Shown here: positions 4,268 to 13,008 of the stretch, piece by piece | Numbering within the stretch: the stretch's first letter is position 1 | Layout of the letters: each line of letters starts with the position of its first letter | The notes under the pieces: generated by a model | What the model saw: the letters and a program-made list of their open reading frames with translations, nothing else | What the model was told of the DNA's origin: nothing | Databases searched by the model: none | From: Prochlorococcus sp. MIT 0801 | GTDB taxonomy: Bacteria > Cyanobacteriota > Cyanobacteriia > PCC-6307 > Cyanobiaceae | Length of the DNA stretch: 32,000 nt | NCBI RefSeq assembly: GCF_000757865.1 | Contig: NZ_CP007754.1 | Span: 990,001 to 1,022,000, forward strand | Direction: 5' to 3' | Position numbers and translations under genes: made by a program

Positions 4268-4624
4268 TTAACCTTCTCCTTCTGGAACTAAACGGAATCC
4301 CTTACGTCCCATCTTAATCTCAAAATTATCACCAGGCTTGAGATCTAAAAGAGCTGTATAGGCCTTTCCTATCAATAGGTTTCCATTTCCTTGAACGGTA
4401 GCCACATAACTTAGCTTTCTTCCACCTTTACCAATACCACCAGCACTTTCAGCTGCTAGGTTTACACCTTTAGCCTCTAGAAGTGCTTCGTAAAAAGCGG
4501 TGTAGTTAAGACGTTCTCCGCCTCCTTTCTTTGTGGAAACATATCCACAAGCTTTAACAAGATCAGATTTTGAGACATCTCCCAAGTCTTTGACCTTGGC
4601 TAATAAATCCTTACCAGTGAGCAT
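4268..4624 (-). CDS. cyanobacterial AbrB-like (SpoVT/AbrB domain) DNA-binding protein
   Basis: C-terminal LLIGKAYTALLDLKPGDNFEIKMGRKGFRLVP resembles the swapped-hairpin AbrB domain. The N-terminal half resembles the cyAbrB family. Confidence 0.8.
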   Translation of the reverse strand: MLTGKDLLAKVKDLGDVSKSDLVKACGYVSTKKGGGERLNYTAFYEALLEAKGVNLAAESAGGIGKGGRKLSYVATVQGNGNLLIGKAYTALLDLKPGDNFEIKMGRKGFRLVPEGEG

Positions 4625-5999: not shown

Positions 6000-6632
6000 T
6001 TATCTAGTTAAAGCCAAAGCCCAATTAGGAGAGGAAGAACTTACACCCAAAATATTCTTAGTCAAGGAGGAATTACATTTAGCGACAATCCCATTGGTAG
6101 GAAGATTAGAAAACAATTCATTATTGATCCATTGAGAATGCCATCTTTTAACCTGCATAGGATCATCAGTTCTTAGAGTTATAGGGACATCGAATCCCCA
6201 TTTTTGAAGTTGGGTCAAATCTGACAATTCATCACTATTTGAGCAAAAGATATGGAATGCTTTAAATAAAAGAGAGGTATTCTTATCAATTTGCGAGAAT
6301 GAGTTCGAAAGTAATTTCTCTAATGAAATCTTGGAATTAGCCGAAGGTGAGTATAAAACGCCCTCCAGCTCAACTTCAACTTTTAGAGAGTCATCAATAC
6401 TCAAAGGGATAGCATTGACATTCCTAATGTTTTCAATCATCACACGATCAACACGGGAATAGGCATCTACTAATTGGCCATATTTATATCGAAGGCCTAC
6501 TGCGAAGCCTACGATTTTGGGCTGCACAACCATGGTTGATCCCTCTGGTAACTTTGCCCACCAGCTAGAGAAACAATCCTTATCAAGTCCAAGTAATCTC
6601 ATATATATATCAATAGGAAGATGTAGAGCCAA
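6000..6632 (-). CDS. standalone NAD-dependent DNA ligase (LigA) adenylation-domain-like protein, degenerate motifs
   Basis: VVQPKIVGFAVGLRYKYGQLV aligns to LigA motif I (KxDG, here K-I-V-G). ELEGVLY aligns to EVRGEVF and NGIVAK to DGVVIK. KWGFDVP and PNWALAL also match LigA. No OB, Zn, HhH or BRCT regions. TTG at 6632; alternative ATG at 6602. Confidence 0.7.
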   Translation of the reverse strand: MALHLPIDIYMRLLGLDKDCFSSWWAKLPEGSTMVVQPKIVGFAVGLRYKYGQLVDAYSRVDRVMIENIRNVNAIPLSIDDSLKVEVELEGVLYSPSANSKISLEKLLSNSFSQIDKNTSLLFKAFHIFCSNSDELSDLTQLQKWGFDVPITLRTDDPMQVKRWHSQWINNELFSNLPTNGIVAKCNSSLTKNILGVSSSSPNWALALTR

Positions 6633-7002: not shown

Positions 7003-7257
7003 ATGACAATACAAGAGAAATATCCGGAAAATATTCCATGGGATTTAAAAACTATCGATCAAAGTAAATACAAATCTATTCATTGGATGCTATCCAAGGC
7101 AGACATCGTTTATACATTCACAAGAAGTCGTATAGACAATAATTATGTATACATACAAAAAAATGATGGTAAAAGAAAGGCATATAAAGAATATGAAGCT
7201 AGATTTACTTACCAAAGATTGTTTGATGAGGGATATTCGCTGGCTGCCTTTTCCTGA
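7003..7257 (+). CDS. conserved hypothetical, tandem paralog 1
   Basis: ORF track; shares EKYPE-x-PWDL and AR-x-TYQ-x-L-x-D-x-G with the next gene. Confidence 0.6.
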   Translation: MTIQEKYPENIPWDLKTIDQSKYKSIHWMLSKADIVYTFTRSRIDNNYVYIQKNDGKRKAYKEYEARFTYQRLFDEGYSLAAFS

Positions 7258-7324: not shown

Positions 7325-7576
7325 ATGCCAAGGGTAAAAAGAGAAAAGTATCCAGAAAAGGCCCCATGGGATTTAGGACCATTATCTGAGCATAAAAATC
7401 AAGAAAACTGGAGACTAGTAAGAGGATCTGAAATTGTCATTTTTGCTAGAAAAGGTGAAGACAACCACTTTTTCATCATGCAAAGAGACGATAAAGAGCC
7501 TATAGAGATTCTCGCATTTCAAGCAAGACTCACATATCAACAACTTTTAGATAAAGGTTTCAAACTTGAAGTTTGA
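7325..7576 (+). CDS. conserved hypothetical, tandem paralog 2
   Basis: ORF track; paralogous to 7003..7257. Confidence 0.6.
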   Translation: MPRVKREKYPEKAPWDLGPLSEHKNQENWRLVRGSEIVIFARKGEDNHFFIMQRDDKEPIEILAFQARLTYQQLLDKGFKLEV

Positions 7577-8540: not shown

Positions 8541-8666
8541 TTAAACGAAACCTGGAATAATCCAGCCTGTGAATCCGTAATTAACTACAGCTGCAAGAAG
8601 GCCCATCATCGCAAGACGACCATTCATTATTTCAGCTGTTTTCCAGTAGTTAGTTTCTTTGTTCAT
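8541..8666 (-). CDS. hli: high-light-inducible protein (HLIP), 41 aa
   Basis: MNKETNYWKTAEIMNGRLAMMGLLAAVVNYGFTGWIIPGFV carries the E-x2-NGR-x-AM-x-G chlorophyll-binding motif. The ORF-track N-terminal extension is read-through of the upstream gene. Confidence 0.9.
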   Translation of the reverse strand: MNKETNYWKTAEIMNGRLAMMGLLAAVVNYGFTGWIIPGFV

Positions 8667-8815
8667 TACACGAAACCTGGAATGATTTGTCCTGTTGTTG
8701 CGTAAGCACCAACTAAAGCAATGCATCCAAACAATGCTGCATAGCCATTAAGTCTTTCTGCAGTTACCTTTTCAGGATCAATGTTTCTACCGCTGCTGTT
8801 GTTTTGAGTAGTCAT
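8666..8815 (-). CDS. hli: high-light-inducible protein, 49 aa
   Basis: MTTQNNSSGRNIDPEKVTAERLNGYAALFGCIALVGAYATTGQIIPGFV. Its stop overlaps the next start as TAATG. Confidence 0.88.
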   Translation of the reverse strand: MTTQNNSSGRNIDPEKVTAERLNGYAALFGCIALVGAYATTGQIIPGFV

Positions 8816-8961
8816 TAGACAACACCTGGAATGATTTGACCTGTTGTTAGATATGCACCGATGAGTGCCCAGCATCCAACAAATGCTGCGTAGCCATTGA
8901 GTCTTTCAGCAATTACTTTGCCTTCTTCTACTCTTGGAGTTTCAGTAGTTTGGTTTTTCAT
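8815..8961 (-). CDS. hli: high-light-inducible protein, 48 aa
   Basis: Hand-called: MKNQTTETPRVEEGKVIAERLNGYAAFVGCWALIGAYLTTGQIIPGVV. TAATG overlaps at both ends. Confidence 0.85.
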   Translation of the reverse strand: MKNQTTETPRVEEGKVIAERLNGYAAFVGCWALIGAYLTTGQIIPGVV

Positions 8962-9826: not shown

Positions 9827-10459
9827 TTACTTTAAGCGATAAAAAACTGAAAGGTTATTGGCTGGCATATCGATGACGTTATCAAGTATGAATCCATTTT
9901 CAAATGCAAGATTGTTAACGTTTTCTAAGTTGCGAAGCCCCCAGAGCGGGTTTTGTTTTTTTAAGGATTGATCAAAATTTAAATTACTTTCTGAAGTTTG
10001 TTTCGCATTTCTGAAGAAAGGCCCATAGAGCATCAAAAAATTGCTTTGATCTAGATATTTCTTTGATTCTTCAAACAAAGATCTTGTACAACTCCATGGT
10101 GAGATATGAATCATATTTATGCAAACAATTCCTTTAATTAAAGCCCCAAGTCGATTGGTAATTGGCCAAGGACGCATGTCTACATCAAGATTAAGAGGAT
10201 CAGGCATTTTTGAATAAAGACCCTCATGCATAATCCAAGAATTAATACTTTTTCTATGTACTAATTCGGGGTCACTAGTTTGCCAGGTAATCGATGGAAA
10301 TTTTTTTTGGAAAAATACTCCGTGTTCACCACTACCACTAGCTATTTCTAAAATCAAGCTATTACGAGAAATATAATTGCTCAAAACTTCGGCGATAGAA
10401 TCTCGGTTCCTTGAGGTGGCCGGGAAAATTAGGCGATAGTCGGGATTTATATTGTCCAT
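9827..10459 (-). CDS. DUF938-family class I SAM-dependent methyltransferase
   Basis: PATSRNRDSIAEVL and LEIASGSGEHGVFFQKKFPSITWQTSDP match the DUF938 N-terminus and the SAM-binding G-x-G-x-G motif. Confidence 0.8.
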   Translation of the reverse strand: MDNINPDYRLIFPATSRNRDSIAEVLSNYISRNSLILEIASGSGEHGVFFQKKFPSITWQTSDPELVHRKSINSWIMHEGLYSKMPDPLNLDVDMRPWPITNRLGALIKGIVCINMIHISPWSCTRSLFEESKKYLDQSNFLMLYGPFFRNAKQTSESNLNFDQSLKKQNPLWGLRNLENVNNLAFENGFILDNVIDMPANNLSVFYRLK

Positions 10460-10722
10460 AATTTTTCAATAGTTAATTGGACTAATGAATCAGAATTATT
10501 TGGAGGTTTTTCCTTAGAAAAATCTTTAATAACAAAAATAATCATTATTATTAAAGGAGTTAGAAAAGCGGATGCAGCAACTGCTCCTATAATTCGTCTT
10601 GAATTTATTAAGGGCTTTTTAACTAATGGGTCACCGCAGAGACCACAAATCAAAACACCCTCATTGCTAGTTTTGTGAAACTGATAACGAGAAGAGCAGA
10701 AAGGGCAATAATATCGGCTCAT
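10447..10722 (-). CDS. zinc-ribbon membrane protein
   Basis: From ATG at 10722: MSRYYCPFCSSRY...ICGLCGDPL, then a TM helix. Its 3' end overlaps the DUF938 start by 13 nt. Confidence 0.55.
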   Translation of the reverse strand: MSRYYCPFCSSRYQFHKTSNEGVLICGLCGDPLVKKPLINSRRIIGAVAASAFLTPLIIMIIFVIKDFSKEKPPNNSDSLVQLTIEKLWTI

Positions 10723-10811
10723 TTCTGATCTTAAAAAACAAAATTTAACTATATTAAATATGCCTACCATTATAAAAAGCAAATTAATTTGATTAAATGT
10801 AGGACTGAAAG

Positions 10812-11498
10812 ATGAGAGAAGAGAATGATGTATTAAATCATCTTATAAGGAATCTTGAGAGAATATCTCCAGAAGATTCTATCTTTAATTACAAATCTGG
10901 AAGCAAAGCCTTCGTATCATTAGGACAAGGAAATATTAGTGAATGGCTGGAGACATTTCTTCCAAATACAAGAATAATTGTAGAACCAAAAATCATTGGA
11001 TCAATCATTGGCATTCAATATATAAATGGAGAATTAAACAAGGTCATAAATAAAAATGTTCAAGACATTACAGAAAGCGTAAGTTCTCTAAAAATTATTC
11101 CTAAAAGCCTACCGATTAAAAACAGACTAGAAATACAAGGTATTCTTTACAACGATAAAAATTTATCAAGAAGAAAAAATGAACCTGAATTTATAGAAAT
11201 ACAAAATTGGCAATCACAGTCTAATAGACTTAAATTCTGCGCTTTTCAAATATATCAATGCAATATTAATCATTTTCAAACACTTCAAGAGTTAAAGCAT
11301 CTAAATTTTGAAATTCCTCAAACTCATTTTACAAACTTCATTTCAGATATCGAAATCTATCTTCAATGTTGGAGAGAGGGTAAGTTATTTACAAGCTATC
11401 CAACAAATGGACTAGTATTAAAAATCAATTCAAGAAAATTGCAGAAGTATCTTGGAGAAAATAACCTATCAATACCTTGCGCATACGCCATAAATTAA
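10812..11498 (+). CDS. second standalone LigA adenylation-domain-like protein, degenerate motifs
   Basis: VEPKIIGSIIGIQYINGEL (K-I-I-G), EIQGILY and NGLVLK. Paralogous to 6000..6632. Confidence 0.7.
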   Translation: MREENDVLNHLIRNLERISPEDSIFNYKSGSKAFVSLGQGNISEWLETFLPNTRIIVEPKIIGSIIGIQYINGELNKVINKNVQDITESVSSLKIIPKSLPIKNRLEIQGILYNDKNLSRRKNEPEFIEIQNWQSQSNRLKFCAFQIYQCNINHFQTLQELKHLNFEIPQTHFTNFISDIEIYLQCWREGKLFTSYPTNGLVLKINSRKLQKYLGENNLSIPCAYAIN

Positions 11499-11644
11499 TG
11501 ATTATTGCTACAACGGAAAATGCATCACAAGTAATGGGAGGAGTCGAGATCCTTTCCCCAATGGGATTATTCATCCTAACCATAGGAATACTATTTACAG
11601 TAGGTGTACCATTAACAATGATTTTAAGAGGGAAAAAAGATTAA
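11498..11644 (+). CDS. 48-aa membrane peptide translationally coupled to the LigA-like gene
   Basis: Hand-called: MIIATTENASQVMGGVEILSPMGLFILTIGILFTVGVPLTMILRGKKD. Its ATG overlaps the upstream TAA (TAATG). Confidence 0.45.
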   Translation: MIIATTENASQVMGGVEILSPMGLFILTIGILFTVGVPLTMILRGKKD

Positions 11645-11758
11645 TTTATTTTCACAGACGATTTTATCGAAAATAAAATTGTGAGTAACTAAACAAACAA
11701 CTACAAAAAAAGGATTTAGATTAAACTCGTAAAGATCAAAATTCAATAAAAGAAAAAT

Positions 11759-12196
11759 ATGAATAAAGAGATTAAAATTCTAATTCATAATATCAACTAC
11801 TTATTTAAGTATCTACATCCTAAGAAATTTCATTTCAATTTGGTATTGCTATCAGGATTACTCTTGGTAACATTGCAACAAACTAGATCTGAAGAACTTT
11901 TTCTAAAATGTGTAGGTAAATATGAAATAAATAGAGGTGCTCTAATCAAACCAGATTGGGAAACAAGCTATCTCACAATTAATCTAGATGGATTAATATC
12001 TACAATTGTCGATAAAGGAATAAAAAAAGAAGGAAGGACTTTGATTAGACGTAATTCATACACGATAACGCAAAGAGATAATAGAAACAGGGTCAGGAAT
12101 ATCTACAAAATCAATGGAAAGTATGGTACCTACTCAGTTGAATCCCCACAGAGGTATAGAACTTTGATAGGTACTTGTCAAAAAGGAAGAGGTTAA
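11759..12196 (+). CDS. hypothetical protein with an N-terminal hydrophobic anchor
   Basis: ORF track; ATG start. Confidence 0.55.
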   Translation: MNKEIKILIHNINYLFKYLHPKKFHFNLVLLSGLLLVTLQQTRSEELFLKCVGKYEINRGALIKPDWETSYLTINLDGLISTIVDKGIKKEGRTLIRRNSYTITQRDNRNRVRNIYKINGKYGTYSVESPQRYRTLIGTCQKGRG

Positions 12197-12714: not shown

Positions 12715-13008
12715 ATGTGGGTAAGCATAGACCTTTGCTTAGTACCAATAGGGGTAGGTGTCTCATTATCTCCATATATAAAGGCGTGCTTATCAATTAT
12801 TGAGGAACATAAGCTTAAGTATGAACTGGGTCCAAATGGAACTGCAATTGAAGGGGAGTGGGATCAAGTTTTTGAATGCGTAAAGAAATGCCATGAGACA
12901 GTTCATAGCAAAGGTGCTCCACGTGTTTATACAACATTAAAAGTAAATACACGTACAGATAAGAAGCAATTATTTAAAGAAAAAGTGGAAAGTGTAAGAG
13001 GCTCATAG
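12715..13008 (+). CDS. MTH1187/YkoF-family (DUF77) thiamine-binding-like protein
   Basis: The pattern VSIDLCLVPIGVGVSLSPYI...KYELGPNGTAIEGEWDQVFECVKKCHE...GAPRVYTTLKVNTRTDK is typical of the family. Confidence 0.85.
   Translation: MWVSIDLCLVPIGVGVSLSPYIKACLSIIEEHKLKYELGPNGTAIEGEWDQVFECVKKCHETVHSKGAPRVYTTLKVNTRTDKKQLFKEKVESVRGS

What the first reader, a model, noticed from the sequence alone, without database searches (positions are those of the whole stretch)
6000..6632. Standalone LigA adenylation domain with a degenerate KxDG motif, present as two divergent paralogs
6000..6632 (minus strand) and 10812..11498 (plus strand) both align by eye to the nucleotidyltransferase domain of NAD-dependent DNA ligase. 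Motif I is PKIVG / PKIIG where LigA has K-L-D-G. Motif III is ELEGVLY / EIQGILY. Motif IV is NGIVAK / NGLVLK where LigA has DGVVIK.

The nucleophilic lysine is kept, but the conserved Asp residues of motifs I and IV are replaced. The Ia, OB-fold, zinc-finger, HhH and BRCT domains are all absent.

These cannot be canonical ligases. They could be adenylyl- or nucleotidyl-transferases with a new substrate, or inactive binding modules. Two diverged copies within 5 kb argues against simple gene decay.
Basis: partly seen in the sequence, partly recalled or inferred. Interest (0 to 1): 0.65.

Follow-up and report, generated by a model that had tools for sequence, protein, structure and literature searches.

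The report
Two eroded stand-alone LigA adenylation-domain genes
The two genes are real, selected, stand-alone copies of the NAD-ligase adenylation domain that have lost most catalytic residues, but this pair of "truncated ligases" in low-light Prochlorococcus has already been reported and their function is still unknown.

Summary
Both ORFs exist and are significant homologues of the LigA nucleotidyltransferase (NTase) domain: Pfam PF01653 E=3.7e-14 and 1.5e-10; AlphaFold models match LigA adenylation domains at TM 0.84-0.89 (A) and 0.65-0.74 (B). Domains Ia, OB, Zn, HhH and BRCT are absent.

The motif reading needs three corrections.
- A's "KIVG" is a minority variant; 101 of 120 orthologues have canonical KIDG.
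- The motif III Glu (E. coli E173) is replaced by V/I.
- The proteins stop at motif V, where the Lys (K314) is T/N, and the R200/R208 arginines are missing.

The genes are not decaying. They are strictly syntenic in all fetched LLI-clade Prochlorococcus loci that span the region, have no internal stops, and show dN/dS of 0.13 (A) and 0.36 (B). They are not a local duplication: A groups with an "intact" Ia+NTase short form carried by cyanosiphovirus-like contigs, while B sits in a degenerate clade in which even the catalytic Lys is often lost.

Most likely they are non-catalytic pseudoenzymes. A keeps an adenine-pocket signature.

The pair is already in the literature: Hjerde et al. 2020 ("ND-Lig tr") and Yan et al. 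2018. Novelty is low; the residue-level erosion and the phage link are new details.

The parts
6000..6602 (-). Gene A: 200-aa stand-alone LigA NTase-domain protein (an 'ND-Lig tr' paralogue). Most likely start is the ATG at 6602; stop is TAA at 6000-6002.
   Evidence: ORF. PF01653 E=3.7e-14. AF2 pLDDT 92.4; Foldseek TM 0.84-0.89 to LigA adenylation domains. dN/dS 0.126 with CI 0.10-0.16. Gene callers use the 200-aa form.
6603..6632 (-). Probably 5' untranslated, not coding.
   Evidence: In orthologues this stretch carries frameshifts (L001, L016, L019), an in-frame stop (L012), or TTT instead of TTG (L002, L006, L014, L015).
6507..6521 (-). A motif I, PKIVG. The Lys corresponds to E. coli K115 and the Val replaces D117.
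   Evidence: Among 120 orthologues K is invariant, and the D117 position is D 101, E 10, V 4, A 2, others 3.
6357..6371 (-). A motif III region, ELEGV. The Gly corresponds to G172, the Val replaces the essential E173, and the invariant Glu sits at the R171 position.
6078..6095 (-). A motif IV, NGIVAK. D285 is replaced by Asn; G286 and K290 are kept. All three positions are invariant in 120 orthologues.
6000..6023 (-). A C-terminus, WALALTR followed by the stop. This is truncated motif V: W309 is kept and K314 is replaced by Thr. The protein ends where the LigA OB domain would begin.
10812..11498 (+). Gene B: 228-aa stand-alone LigA NTase-domain protein. It is the more eroded paralogue.
   Evidence: ORF. 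PF01653 E=1.5e-10. AF2 pLDDT 86.1; TM 0.65-0.74 to LigA adenylation domains. dN/dS 0.36 with CI 0.28-0.47.
10986..11000 (+). B motif I, PKIIG. K115 is kept (115 of 119 orthologues; R in 3, N in 1). D117 is replaced by Ile (118 of 119).
11130..11144 (+). B motif III region, EIQGI. E173 is replaced by Ile or Val.
11406..11423 (+). B motif IV, NGLVLK. D285 is Asn or Ser across the family; K290 is invariant.
11478..11498 (+). B C-terminus, CAYAIN followed by the stop. This is truncated motif V. The W309 position is Cys in this copy (Trp in 116 of 119 orthologues), and K314 is replaced by Asn.

Best explanation
A and B are two anciently diverged members of a marine family of stand-alone LigA nucleotidyltransferase (NTase) domain proteins, the 'ND-Lig tr' of Hjerde et al. 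2020.

The family has two grades.
- An intact grade (about 245-283 aa) consists of domain Ia plus the NTase domain and keeps every adenylylation residue. It is carried in the replication module of cyanosiphovirus-like phages.
- A degenerate grade has lost domain Ia and most catalytic residues.

Both window genes belong to the degenerate grade. They are fixed at conserved positions flanking an hli cluster in the LLI clade of Prochlorococcus, a clade that also has a full-length LigA according to Hjerde et al.

My committed reading is that they no longer ligate DNA or form a lysyl-AMP intermediate. They persist as non-catalytic NTase-fold binding modules (pseudoenzymes).
- A keeps the adenine-pocket set (Q113, K115, R136, aromatic 225, K290) and most likely still binds an adenine nucleotide or an adenylylated end without turning it over.
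- B has eroded further and more probably acts as a scaffold or partner.

What is shown: homology, fold, domain loss, residue loss, purifying selection, vertical inheritance, and the phage link of the intact grade.

What is inferred: loss of catalysis, ligand binding, and the direction of transfer.
For: HOMOLOGY AND FOLD
- establish homology to, and the fold of, the LigA adenylation domain.

NUMBERED REFERENCE
- E. coli LigA 1-335, written from memory, was verified against 4glx/2owo.

RESIDUE MAP
- A: K115, V117, G118, R136, V173, no R200/R208, F225, E277, N285, G286, K290, T314.
- B: K115, I117, K136, I173, F/Y225, K277, N285, K290, N314.

GRADE STATISTICS OVER 50%-IDENTITY CLUSTERS
- 21 intact clusters keep K115, D117, E173, D285, K290 and K314, plus the domain Ia residues Y22, D32, F35 and D36.
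- 42 degenerate clusters keep K115 in 27, D117 in 11, E173 in 17, D285 in 13 and K314 in 17.
- The same 42 keep E/Q113 in 37, G118 in 41, aromatic 225 in 37 and G286 in 37.

WITHIN-FAMILY CONSERVATION
- A has Q113, K115, G118, F225, N285, G286 and K290 invariant in 120 of 120, and R136 in 119 of 120. The D117 position is among the most variable fifth of sites.

SELECTION
- A: dN/dS 0.126 (CI 0.10-0.16).
- B: dN/dS 0.361 (CI 0.28-0.47).
- Neighbour DUF938: 0.19.
- No internal stops in either gene.

SYNTENY
- Gene order is identical in every LLI locus that spans the region.

NO PARTNER
- No OB, Zn, HhH or BRCT sequence, and no T5-type subunit B, occurs in the window or in L001-L075.

PHAGE LINK
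- The intact grade was found on 45 IMG/VR contigs over its full length.
- L036 carries a primase-helicase, a VRR-NUC-type nuclease and a Mom-like protein. Its primase is 57% identical to that of Synechococcus phage S-LBS1.
- A's nearest non-orthologue is the intact cluster P0249 (43% identity). B's nearest neighbours are degenerate clusters.

ESTABLISHED KNOWLEDGE (Shuman laboratory mutagenesis of E. coli LigA, recalled not retrieved)
- K115, D117, G118, R136, E173, R200, R208, R277, D285, K290 and K314 are essential.
- Domain Ia is required for reaction with NAD+.
Against: - K115 is invariant in A and 97% conserved in B. A pure scaffold would not obviously need it.
- A keeps an invariant Glu two residues before the lost E173, on the same face of the strand, which might substitute for it.
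- D-to-N at motif IV is conservative in shape.
- Nothing biochemical is known. The only reported expression attempt on a family member gave insoluble protein.
- The NJ tree is rough and has no support values.
- The direction of transfer, phage to host or host to phage, is not resolved.
Confidence: 0.62

Rival explanations
1. They are active nucleotidyltransferases with a non-canonical mechanism or substrate. For example, the motif I Lys could be charged from ATP or another donor, and the nucleotide then passed to a protein, RNA or small molecule.
For: - K115 and K290 are invariant in A (120 of 120). K115 is kept in 115 of 119 and K290 in 119 of 119 in B.
- Most A orthologues keep KIDG and R136.
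- Both genes are under purifying selection.
- A has an invariant Glu at the R171 position that might replace E173.
Against: - E173, D285, K314, R200 and R208 are all lost, and domain Ia is absent, in both genes.
- In A the D117 position drifts through D, E, V, A, Q, K and N.
- In the wider degenerate grade K115 is replaced in 15 of 42 clusters. That is hard to reconcile with a conserved covalent mechanism.
Confidence: 0.17
2. They are the catalytic subunit of a split, two-protein NAD-dependent ligase. This would resemble the heterodimeric ligase of T5-like phages, with a DNA-binding partner encoded elsewhere.
For: - There is a precedent: PDB 9hu3/9i5i, 'PR1 phage heterodimeric DNA ligase', is a structural hit.
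- Klebsiella phage MW713578 has adjacent genes for subunit A and subunit B.
- On phage contigs the intact short form has a conserved adjacent ORF of about 250 aa in 44 of 45 loci.
Against: - T5-type subunit A still contains the OB domain (PF01653 plus PF03120), and subunit B carries HhH plus BRCT. That is a different split point.
- No OB, Zn, HhH or BRCT sequence, no subunit-B-like sequence and no homologue of the phage neighbour occurs in the window or in the Prochlorococcus loci.
- Catalytic residues needed for every ligation step are missing in A and B.
- LLI strains already have a full-length LigA.
Confidence: 0.04
3. They are decaying remnants of a ligase gene, that is pseudogenes, or spurious ORFs.
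For: - Many catalytic residues are lost.
- B has a moderately high dN/dS of 0.36, and one pairwise value slightly exceeds 1.
- This window's copies carry minority substitutions: D117V in A and W309C in B.
Against: - There are no frameshifts or internal stops in 20 (A) and 18 (B) orthologues that differ by up to 27-39% in protein sequence.
- dN/dS confidence intervals lie well below 1.
- Synteny is strict.
- The fold predictions are confident.
- More than 400 (A) and more than 300 (B) intact homologues occur in metagenomes.
Confidence: 0.04
4. They are host-domesticated decoys or sensors in phage-host conflict. For example, a dead copy could titrate a partner or ligand of the phage-borne intact Ia+NTase protein, or could sense NAD+-derived nucleotides.
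For: - The intact homologues sit in cyanosiphovirus-like replication modules.
- The degenerate copies are in Prochlorococcus regions rich in hli genes, which the literature describes as island-like or prophage-like.
- A keeps an adenine-pocket signature.
Against: - There is no match to any PADLOC defence model. Only 1 of 64 family members gives a chance-level hit.
- No defence genes are adjacent.
- Within LLI the genes are fixed and syntenic rather than variable.
- The idea is entirely inferential.
Confidence: 0.1

Closest known systems
'ND-Lig tr', the truncated NAD-dependent ligases of Prochlorococcus (Hjerde et al., bioRxiv 10.1101/2020.05.11.089284). The same two genes are listed as 'DNA ligase' in the LLI clade-specific region by Yan et al. 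2018 (PMC6102989).
   Same: These are the same genes. Both are PF01653-only proteins under 260 aa, present in two copies in LLI strains beside a full-length LigA, and presumed inactive. In PMC6102989 the NATL2A coordinates 954713-955315 (603 bp, minus strand) and 959226-959912 (687 bp, plus strand) match A and B in size, orientation and spacing.
   Different: - The preprint states that the truncated forms contain 'Ia and NT domains'. A and B lack Ia.
- It places them on mobile regions or an incomplete prophage. Here they are strictly syntenic across the LLI clade.
- Neither paper gives a residue-level analysis, a selection analysis, the intact/degenerate split, or the link to cyanosiphovirus-like contigs.
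Adenylation (Ia + NTase) fragment of bacterial LigA (PF01653; for example PDB 1b04, 1tae, 3jsl, 7k72)
   Same: Same fold (TM up to 0.89). The motif I Lys, G118, G172, G286, K290, W309 and the adenine-stacking aromatic residue are at equivalent positions.
   Different: No domain Ia. The chain between motif I and motif V is about 30 residues shorter. E173, R200, R208, D285 and K314 are lost. From recalled literature, the isolated LigA fragment self-adenylylates with NAD+. A and B lack the residues and the domain needed for that.
Heterodimeric NAD-dependent ligase of T5-like phages (subunits A and B; PDB 9hu3/9i5i; Klebsiella phage MW713578)
   Same: The NAD-ligase NTase domain is encoded as a separate polypeptide. 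It is a structural hit for both models.
   Different: Subunit A keeps Ia-like residues, all catalytic motifs and the OB domain. An adjacent subunit B supplies HhH and BRCT. A and B have neither the motifs, nor the OB domain, nor a partner gene.
Intact short 'Ia+NTase' proteins of uncultured cyanosiphovirus-like phages (for example L036:5989-6768; clusters P0274, P0255, P0286)
   Same: Same family, with up to about 39% identity to A by tblastn. They end at the same point, directly after motif V, and likewise lack OB, Zn, HhH and BRCT.
   Different: They keep domain Ia residues and all adenylylation residues (R200 is Gln). They sit in a phage replication module, next to a conserved phrog_1924 gene. 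They are uncharacterised.

Membership tests
NAD-dependent DNA ligase LigA (functional enzyme; NCBIfam TIGR00575 / PRK07956) | Full domain set: Ia, NTase, OB, Zn finger, HhH, BRCT | tested here: not met
   Only PF01653 is found at E<=10. NCBIfam LigA scores are 33-48 bits against cutoffs of 369-444. tblastn with LigA C-terminal halves finds nothing in the window.
NAD-dependent DNA ligase LigA (functional enzyme; NCBIfam TIGR00575 / PRK07956) | Catalytic residues K115, D117, G118, R136, E173, R200, R208, R277, D285, K290, K314 (E. coli numbering) | tested here: not met
   In the window copies, A keeps K115, G118, R136 and K290; B keeps K115, G118 and K290. The remaining residues are replaced or deleted.
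Pfam PF01653 DNA_ligase_aden (homology family of the NTase domain) | Score above the curated gathering threshold of 27 bits | tested here: met
   53.3 bits for A and 41.4 bits for B.
Pfam PF01653 DNA_ligase_aden (homology family of the NTase domain) | Adenylation-domain fold | tested here: met
   AF2 pLDDT 92.4 and 86.1. Foldseek top hits are all LigA adenylation domains, with TMq 0.84-0.89 (A) and 0.65-0.74 (B).
Covalent nucleotidyltransferase superfamily (ligases and capping enzymes) as active enzymes | Motif I KxDG with a nucleophilic Lys and a conserved Asp | tested here: inconclusive
   The Lys is present in both. The Asp is Val in this A (Asp in 101 of 120 orthologues) and Ile in B (118 of 119).
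Covalent nucleotidyltransferase superfamily (ligases and capping enzymes) as active enzymes | Motif III Glu, motif IV Asp and motif V Lys | tested here: not met
   E173 is V/I, D285 is N (or S), and K314 is T/N in the A and B families.
Covalent nucleotidyltransferase superfamily (ligases and capping enzymes) as active enzymes | Formation of a lysyl-NMP intermediate | not testable with these tools
   This needs a biochemical assay. The only reported attempt to express a family member gave insoluble protein.
Prochlorococcus 'ND-Lig tr' (Hjerde et al. 2020) | PF01653-containing protein under 260 aa that lacks OB, Zn and BRCT, encoded in Prochlorococcus, with two copies in LLI strains | tested here: met
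   The proteins are 200 and 228 aa. Homologues are named Prochlorococcus marinus and come from genomes of about 1.9 Mb.
Prochlorococcus 'ND-Lig tr' (Hjerde et al. 2020) | Contains the Ia domain, as stated in that preprint's figure legend | tested here: not met
   A has 28 residues and B has 59 residues before the motif I Lys, against 114 in E. coli. Domain Ia residues Y22, D32, Y35 and D36 are absent or not conserved.
T5-like heterodimeric NAD ligase, subunit A | NTase plus OB in one chain, with an adjacent subunit B carrying HhH and BRCT | tested here: not met
   The reference is defined. No OB domain is present in A or B, and there is no subunit-B-like sequence in the window or in LLI loci.

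The most novel reading that the evidence does not exclude
The degenerate LigA-NTase proteins of Prochlorococcus are domesticated pseudoenzymes. On this reading they derive from a two-gene cyanosiphovirus module (a phrog_1924 protein plus an intact Ia+NTase 'mini-ligase') and now act as adenine-nucleotide sensors or as decoys in phage-host conflict or stress signalling. The phage-borne intact form would itself be a new kind of minimal NAD-dependent ligase or AMP-transferase that works with a non-homologous partner instead of the OB, Zn and HhH domains.
Probability: 0.1. Interest if true: 0.7.

Novelty: already known. Interest (0 to 1): 0.3.

Why it matters
Public annotation still calls gene A "NAD-dependent DNA ligase", and one paper counts both genes as DNA-repair capacity of the LLI clade. 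The residue map shows that this is wrong, which matters for metabolic and repair inferences drawn from marine metagenomes, where the family is abundant.

Biologically, the family is a clean natural series. It runs from an apparently competent Ia+NTase protein on phages to catalytically eroded but selected copies in one of the most abundant phototrophs. That makes it a tractable case for asking what a ligase adenylation fold is good for once it no longer ligates. It also bears on the ligase-replacement story in Prochlorococcus, where ATP-dependent ligases replace LigA in high-light clades.

Tried and rejected
- PADLOC defence models. B gave one weak hit (PDC-M58B, E=0.0016). Only 1 of 64 family members reproduces it, so it is chance.
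- Cultured cyanophage genomes (INPHARED tblastn with B, A and P0245). No short homologue was found. The hits are full-length phage LigAs, including the 669-aa LigA of Microcystis phage MaMV.
- Split-ligase partner. tblastn with 20 LigA C-terminal halves and with T5-type subunit B found nothing in the window, the Prochlorococcus loci or the short-form viral loci.
- Shared neighbours. None of the window's flanking genes occurs on the viral loci, and the phage neighbour (phrog_1924) has no homologue in the window or LLI loci.
- Identity of the phrog_1924 neighbour. There is no Pfam domain and no PDB relative by profile search.
- Promoter and terminator scan. The counts are at chance level: 38 promoter-like sites against 32.9 expected.
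- Inspecting pocket geometry. Model coordinates are not exposed to scripts.
- Literature on expression or function of these genes, and on the PR1 heterodimeric ligase. Nothing was retrievable beyond the two papers cited.
- The first viral-contig scan, using the 64-sequence alignment, failed because no stretch was conserved enough. It was repeated with the intact-grade alignment.
Full report
OBSERVATION

The window has about 31-35% G+C and carries a tandem hli cluster at 8541-8961. The best database matches are Prochlorococcus marinus genomes of about 1.9 Mb, which is LLI-clade size.

A lies at 6000-6632 on the minus strand and B at 10812-11498 on the plus strand. They are paralogues, with 26% identity over 197 residues and E=1e-21.

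The resemblance to the NAD-ligase adenylation domain is statistically solid.
- Pfam PF01653 scores 53.3 and 41.4 bits against a gathering cutoff of 27.
- phmmer against PDB sequences finds only LigA adenylation domains, down to 7e-7.
- AlphaFold2 models built on a 64-sequence family alignment are confident: pLDDT 92.4 and pTM 0.89 for A, pLDDT 86.1 and pTM 0.84 for B.
- Those models superpose on LigA adenylation domains with query-normalised TM of 0.84-0.89 for A and 0.65-0.74 for B.

Nothing else of LigA is present. Pfam at E<=10 reports only PF01653. NCBIfam LigA models score about a tenth of their cutoffs. tblastn with the C-terminal halves of 20 full-length LigAs finds nothing in the window.

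CORRECTIONS TO THE OBSERVATION

To number residues I wrote E. coli LigA 1-335 from memory and verified it against PDB 4glx/2owo. It matched at all positions but one, V259L. I then aligned the family to it.

1. Start codon. The TTG start at 6632 is not supported. In orthologues the 10-codon extension carries frameshifts, a stop, or TTT instead of TTG. A therefore most likely starts at the ATG at 6602 and is 200 aa long. Gene callers agree.

2. Motif I. The motif I Lys aligns with K115 in both genes. However, A's KIVG is a minority variant. Of 120 orthologues, 101 have KIDG, 10 have KIEG, and 4 have KIVG. B is fixed at KIIG in 118 of 119.

3. Motif III. It is not retained. The essential Glu (E173 in LigA "EVRGEVF"; "EIRGELFG" in intact relatives) follows the Gly, and it is Val in A and Ile in B. 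The Glu residues before the Gly correspond to E169 and R171.

4. Motif IV.

5. Motif V and other losses. Both proteins end inside motif V: WALALTR-stop in A and CAYAIN-stop in B, against LigA's WAVAFKF. K314 is therefore Thr in A and Asn in B. The NPRNAAAGSLRQLD segment that carries R200 and R208 is missing or replaced. R277 is Glu in A and Lys in B. R136 is kept in A (119 of 120) but is Lys or Glu in B.

Exact motif coordinates were verified.

ARE THE GENES ALIVE?

Yes. In every LLI Prochlorococcus locus that spans the region the gene order is identical: AbrB-like gene, two small ORFs, A, two small paralogous ORFs, the hli cluster, DUF4090, DUF938, a Zn-ribbon membrane protein, B, then two more ORFs.

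Protein identity to the window copy ranges over 73-92% for A and 61-88% for B. That is comparable to the neighbours DUF938 (67-89%) and the Zn-ribbon protein (60-89%). No orthologue has an internal stop.

Nei-Gojobori dN/dS values are as follows.

| Gene | Median dN/dS | Bootstrap 95% CI | Pairs below 1 |
|---|---|---|---|
| A | 0.126 | 0.10-0.16 | all |
| B | 0.361 | 0.28-0.47 | 98.8% |
| DUF938 | 0.19 | 0.15-0.26 | all |
| DUF4090 | 0.11 | not computed | not computed |
| 145-aa ORF downstream of B | 0.32 | not computed | not computed |

The pseudogene reading is refuted. Within this clade the genes behave as fixed, vertically inherited genes rather than as variable island cargo.

THE WIDER FAMILY

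An exhaustive profile search of 1.84 billion cluster representatives found 4269 hits, 56 of them below 1e-30. The top 70 or so are stand-alone proteins of 190-283 aa. Full-length LigAs follow at 98 bits or less.

Mapped onto E. coli numbering, the stand-alone proteins fall into two grades.

- The intact grade comprises 21 clusters with a median length of 265 aa. It keeps the domain Ia residues Y22, D32, F/Y35 and D36, together with QPKIDG, R136, E173, D285, G286, K290, W309 and K314. Only R200 is changed, uniformly to Gln. These proteins also stop directly after motif V.
- The degenerate grade comprises 42 clusters with a median length of 228 aa, and includes A and B. It lacks domain Ia and has no consistent catalytic set. 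K115 is kept in 27 of 42, D117 in 11, E173 in 17, D285 in 13, K290 in 29 and K314 in 17. It does retain E/Q113 (37), G118 (41), an aromatic residue at 225 (37) and G286 (37).

Within A's own orthologues, Q113, K115, G118, F225, N285, G286 and K290 are invariant in 120 of 120, and R136 in 119 of 120. The D117 position is in the most variable fifth of sites.

B is more eroded. The stacking position is F, C, Y or S. The R136 position is K or E. The D285 position is N or S.

A rough NJ tree places A next to an intact cluster (P0249, 43% identity), beside the intact clade, and places B among degenerate clusters. The two genes therefore belong to different sublineages and are not a local duplication.

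WHERE THE INTACT GRADE LIVES

A pattern scan of IMG/VR returned 45 viral contigs of 4-58 kb that encode full-length intact forms at 33-53% identity.

L036 is a genuine phage fragment. It carries a primase-helicase, a VRR-NUC-type nuclease and a Mom-like protein. Its primase-polymerase is 57% identical to that of Synechococcus phage S-LBS1 and also matches cyanophage S-2L.

A profile search in the 5.8-billion-protein collection found 1231 relatives at E<=1e-10. All the listed ones are on contigs of 56 kb or less, and none is from a complete cellular genome.

No cultured cyanophage has a sequence-detectable short form. Structurally, however, a 193-aa uncharacterised protein of Synechococcus phage S-CAM8 matches model A over its whole length, with target-normalised TM of 0.69.

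THE SPLIT-LIGASE RIVAL

Foldseek also hit the "PR1 phage heterodimeric DNA ligase" (9hu3/9i5i). In a T5-like Klebsiella phage the annotated subunit A (320 aa) contains PF01653 plus the OB domain PF03120. The adjacent subunit B (249 aa) contains HhH and BRCT.

That is a different split point from the one seen here. No subunit-B-like or LigA C-terminal sequence exists in the window, in the Prochlorococcus loci or in the short-form viral loci. Given the missing catalytic residues as well, A and B are very unlikely to be ligase subunits.

The intact phage form may be a different matter. In 44 of 45 viral loci a diverged ORF of about 250 aa (phrog_1924, labelled "minor tail protein", with no Pfam or PDB relative) lies about 57 bp upstream on the same strand, between the primase-helicase and the short ligase gene. 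It has no homologue in the window or in LLI loci.

MECHANISM

From established LigA enzymology (Shuman laboratory mutagenesis, recalled rather than retrieved):
- Domain Ia is required for reaction with NAD+.
- E173, D285 and K314 are required for adenylylation.
- R200, R208 and the C-terminal domains are required for nick recognition.

A and B lack all of these, so canonical ligation and NAD+-dependent self-adenylylation are excluded by inference.

The nucleophilic Lys is dispensable across the degenerate grade, being replaced in 15 of 42 clusters. This argues that the grade as a whole has left covalent catalysis behind.

What A conserves absolutely is the set that in LigA surrounds the adenine and ribose: Q/E113, K115, R136, the stacking aromatic residue and K290. 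My committed reading is therefore a non-catalytic NTase-fold module. A probably still binds an adenine nucleotide or an adenylylated end. B is further reduced and is perhaps a scaffold.

I put about 0.6 on the pseudoenzyme reading and about 0.35 on nucleotide binding by A specifically. A residual transferase activity, at about 0.17, is the main rival, because K115 is invariant in A and an invariant Glu sits two residues upstream of the lost E173.

COMPARISON WITH WHAT IS KNOWN

The pair is already described.
- Yan et al. 2018 list two "DNA ligase" genes in the LLI clade-specific region of NATL2A, at 954713-955315 (603 bp, minus strand) and 959226-959912 (687 bp, plus strand), next to hli genes. 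The sizes, orientations and spacing match A and B.
- Hjerde et al. 2020 define truncated NAD-ligases ("ND-Lig tr", under 260 aa). They note that LLI strains have a full-length LigA plus truncated forms, that NATL2A has two of them, that recombinant protein was insoluble, and that the proteins are presumably inactive and horizontally mobile.

The details added here are:
- the residue-by-residue erosion;
- the absence of domain Ia in these two genes, where the preprint says Ia is present in the truncated forms;
- the quantified purifying selection;
- the strict synteny within LLI;
- the split of the family into intact and degenerate grades;
- the residence of the intact grade in cyanosiphovirus-like replication modules.

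VERDICT

The feature is real and is correctly recognised as a LigA-NTase homologue. The object itself is already known and its function is still unknown.

Interest is modest at 0.3. The more interesting lead is the phage-borne intact two-gene module, which lies outside the window.

Noticed in passing
L031-L075 (for example L036:5182-5949 and L036:5989-6768): On cyanosiphovirus-like viral contigs the intact Ia+NTase 'mini-ligase' is preceded, in 44 of 45 loci, by a diverged ORF of about 250 aa. It lies on the same strand about 57 bp upstream, between the primase-helicase and the ligase gene. It matches phrog_1924 ('minor tail protein') and has no Pfam or PDB relative. It may be a partner subunit of a two-protein NAD ligase. 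A 73-aa CxxC protein follows the ligase gene in 18 loci.
   Followed up: partly
window 7003-7257 (+) and 7325-7576 (+): Two adjacent small paralogous ORFs of 84 and 83 aa, about 35% identical, both beginning with a '..KYPE..PWDL' sequence. They are transcribed divergently from gene A and are conserved in all LLI loci. The second is under very strong constraint (dN/dS 0.03). Neither has a Pfam family.
   Followed up: partly
window 8541-8961 (-): A tandem cluster of three overlapping or adjacent hli (high-light-inducible protein) ORFs lies between genes A and B. The copy number of hli-like segments varies between LLI loci.
   Followed up: no
window 4268-4624 (-): The AbrB-like regulator (PF14250, E=1e-27) is 99-100% identical in protein sequence in all 22 LLI loci that hold it (dN about 0). 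Its neighbours diverge by 10-40%.
   Followed up: no
window 10812-12196 and 12715-13008: Synonymous divergence is markedly lower for gene B (median dS 0.39), the downstream 145-aa ORF (0.41) and the ORF at 12715 (0.34) than for gene A (1.0) or DUF938 (0.75) over the same genome set. Possible causes are recent recombination or a sweep, or constraint on the nucleotide sequence in this segment.
   Followed up: no
window 9827-10782 (-): DUF938 (a methyltransferase-like protein, 210 aa) overlaps by 13 bp a 111-aa Zn-ribbon plus transmembrane protein. That protein is transcribed divergently from gene B, with an intergenic gap of at most 30-90 bp depending on its true start. The arrangement is conserved in all LLI loci.
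   Followed up: no
BFVD entry G8EY44 (Synechococcus phage S-CAM8): This 193-aa uncharacterised protein of a cultured cyanomyovirus is a whole-length structural match to model A (TMq 0.67, TMt 0.69, 18% identity). It is not detectable by tblastn. It may be another stand-alone NTase-fold protein in cyanophages.
   Followed up: no
L023:7869-8570 and L030:6-680: Other Prochlorococcus single-cell genomes (AG-363-P15 and AG-355-M18) carry further divergent degenerate paralogues, 38-42% identical to B. The L023 copy has motifs EPKING, NGIVLK and WSYAIKKY, so its motif V Lys is retained. It sits in a different genomic context.
   Followed up: partly
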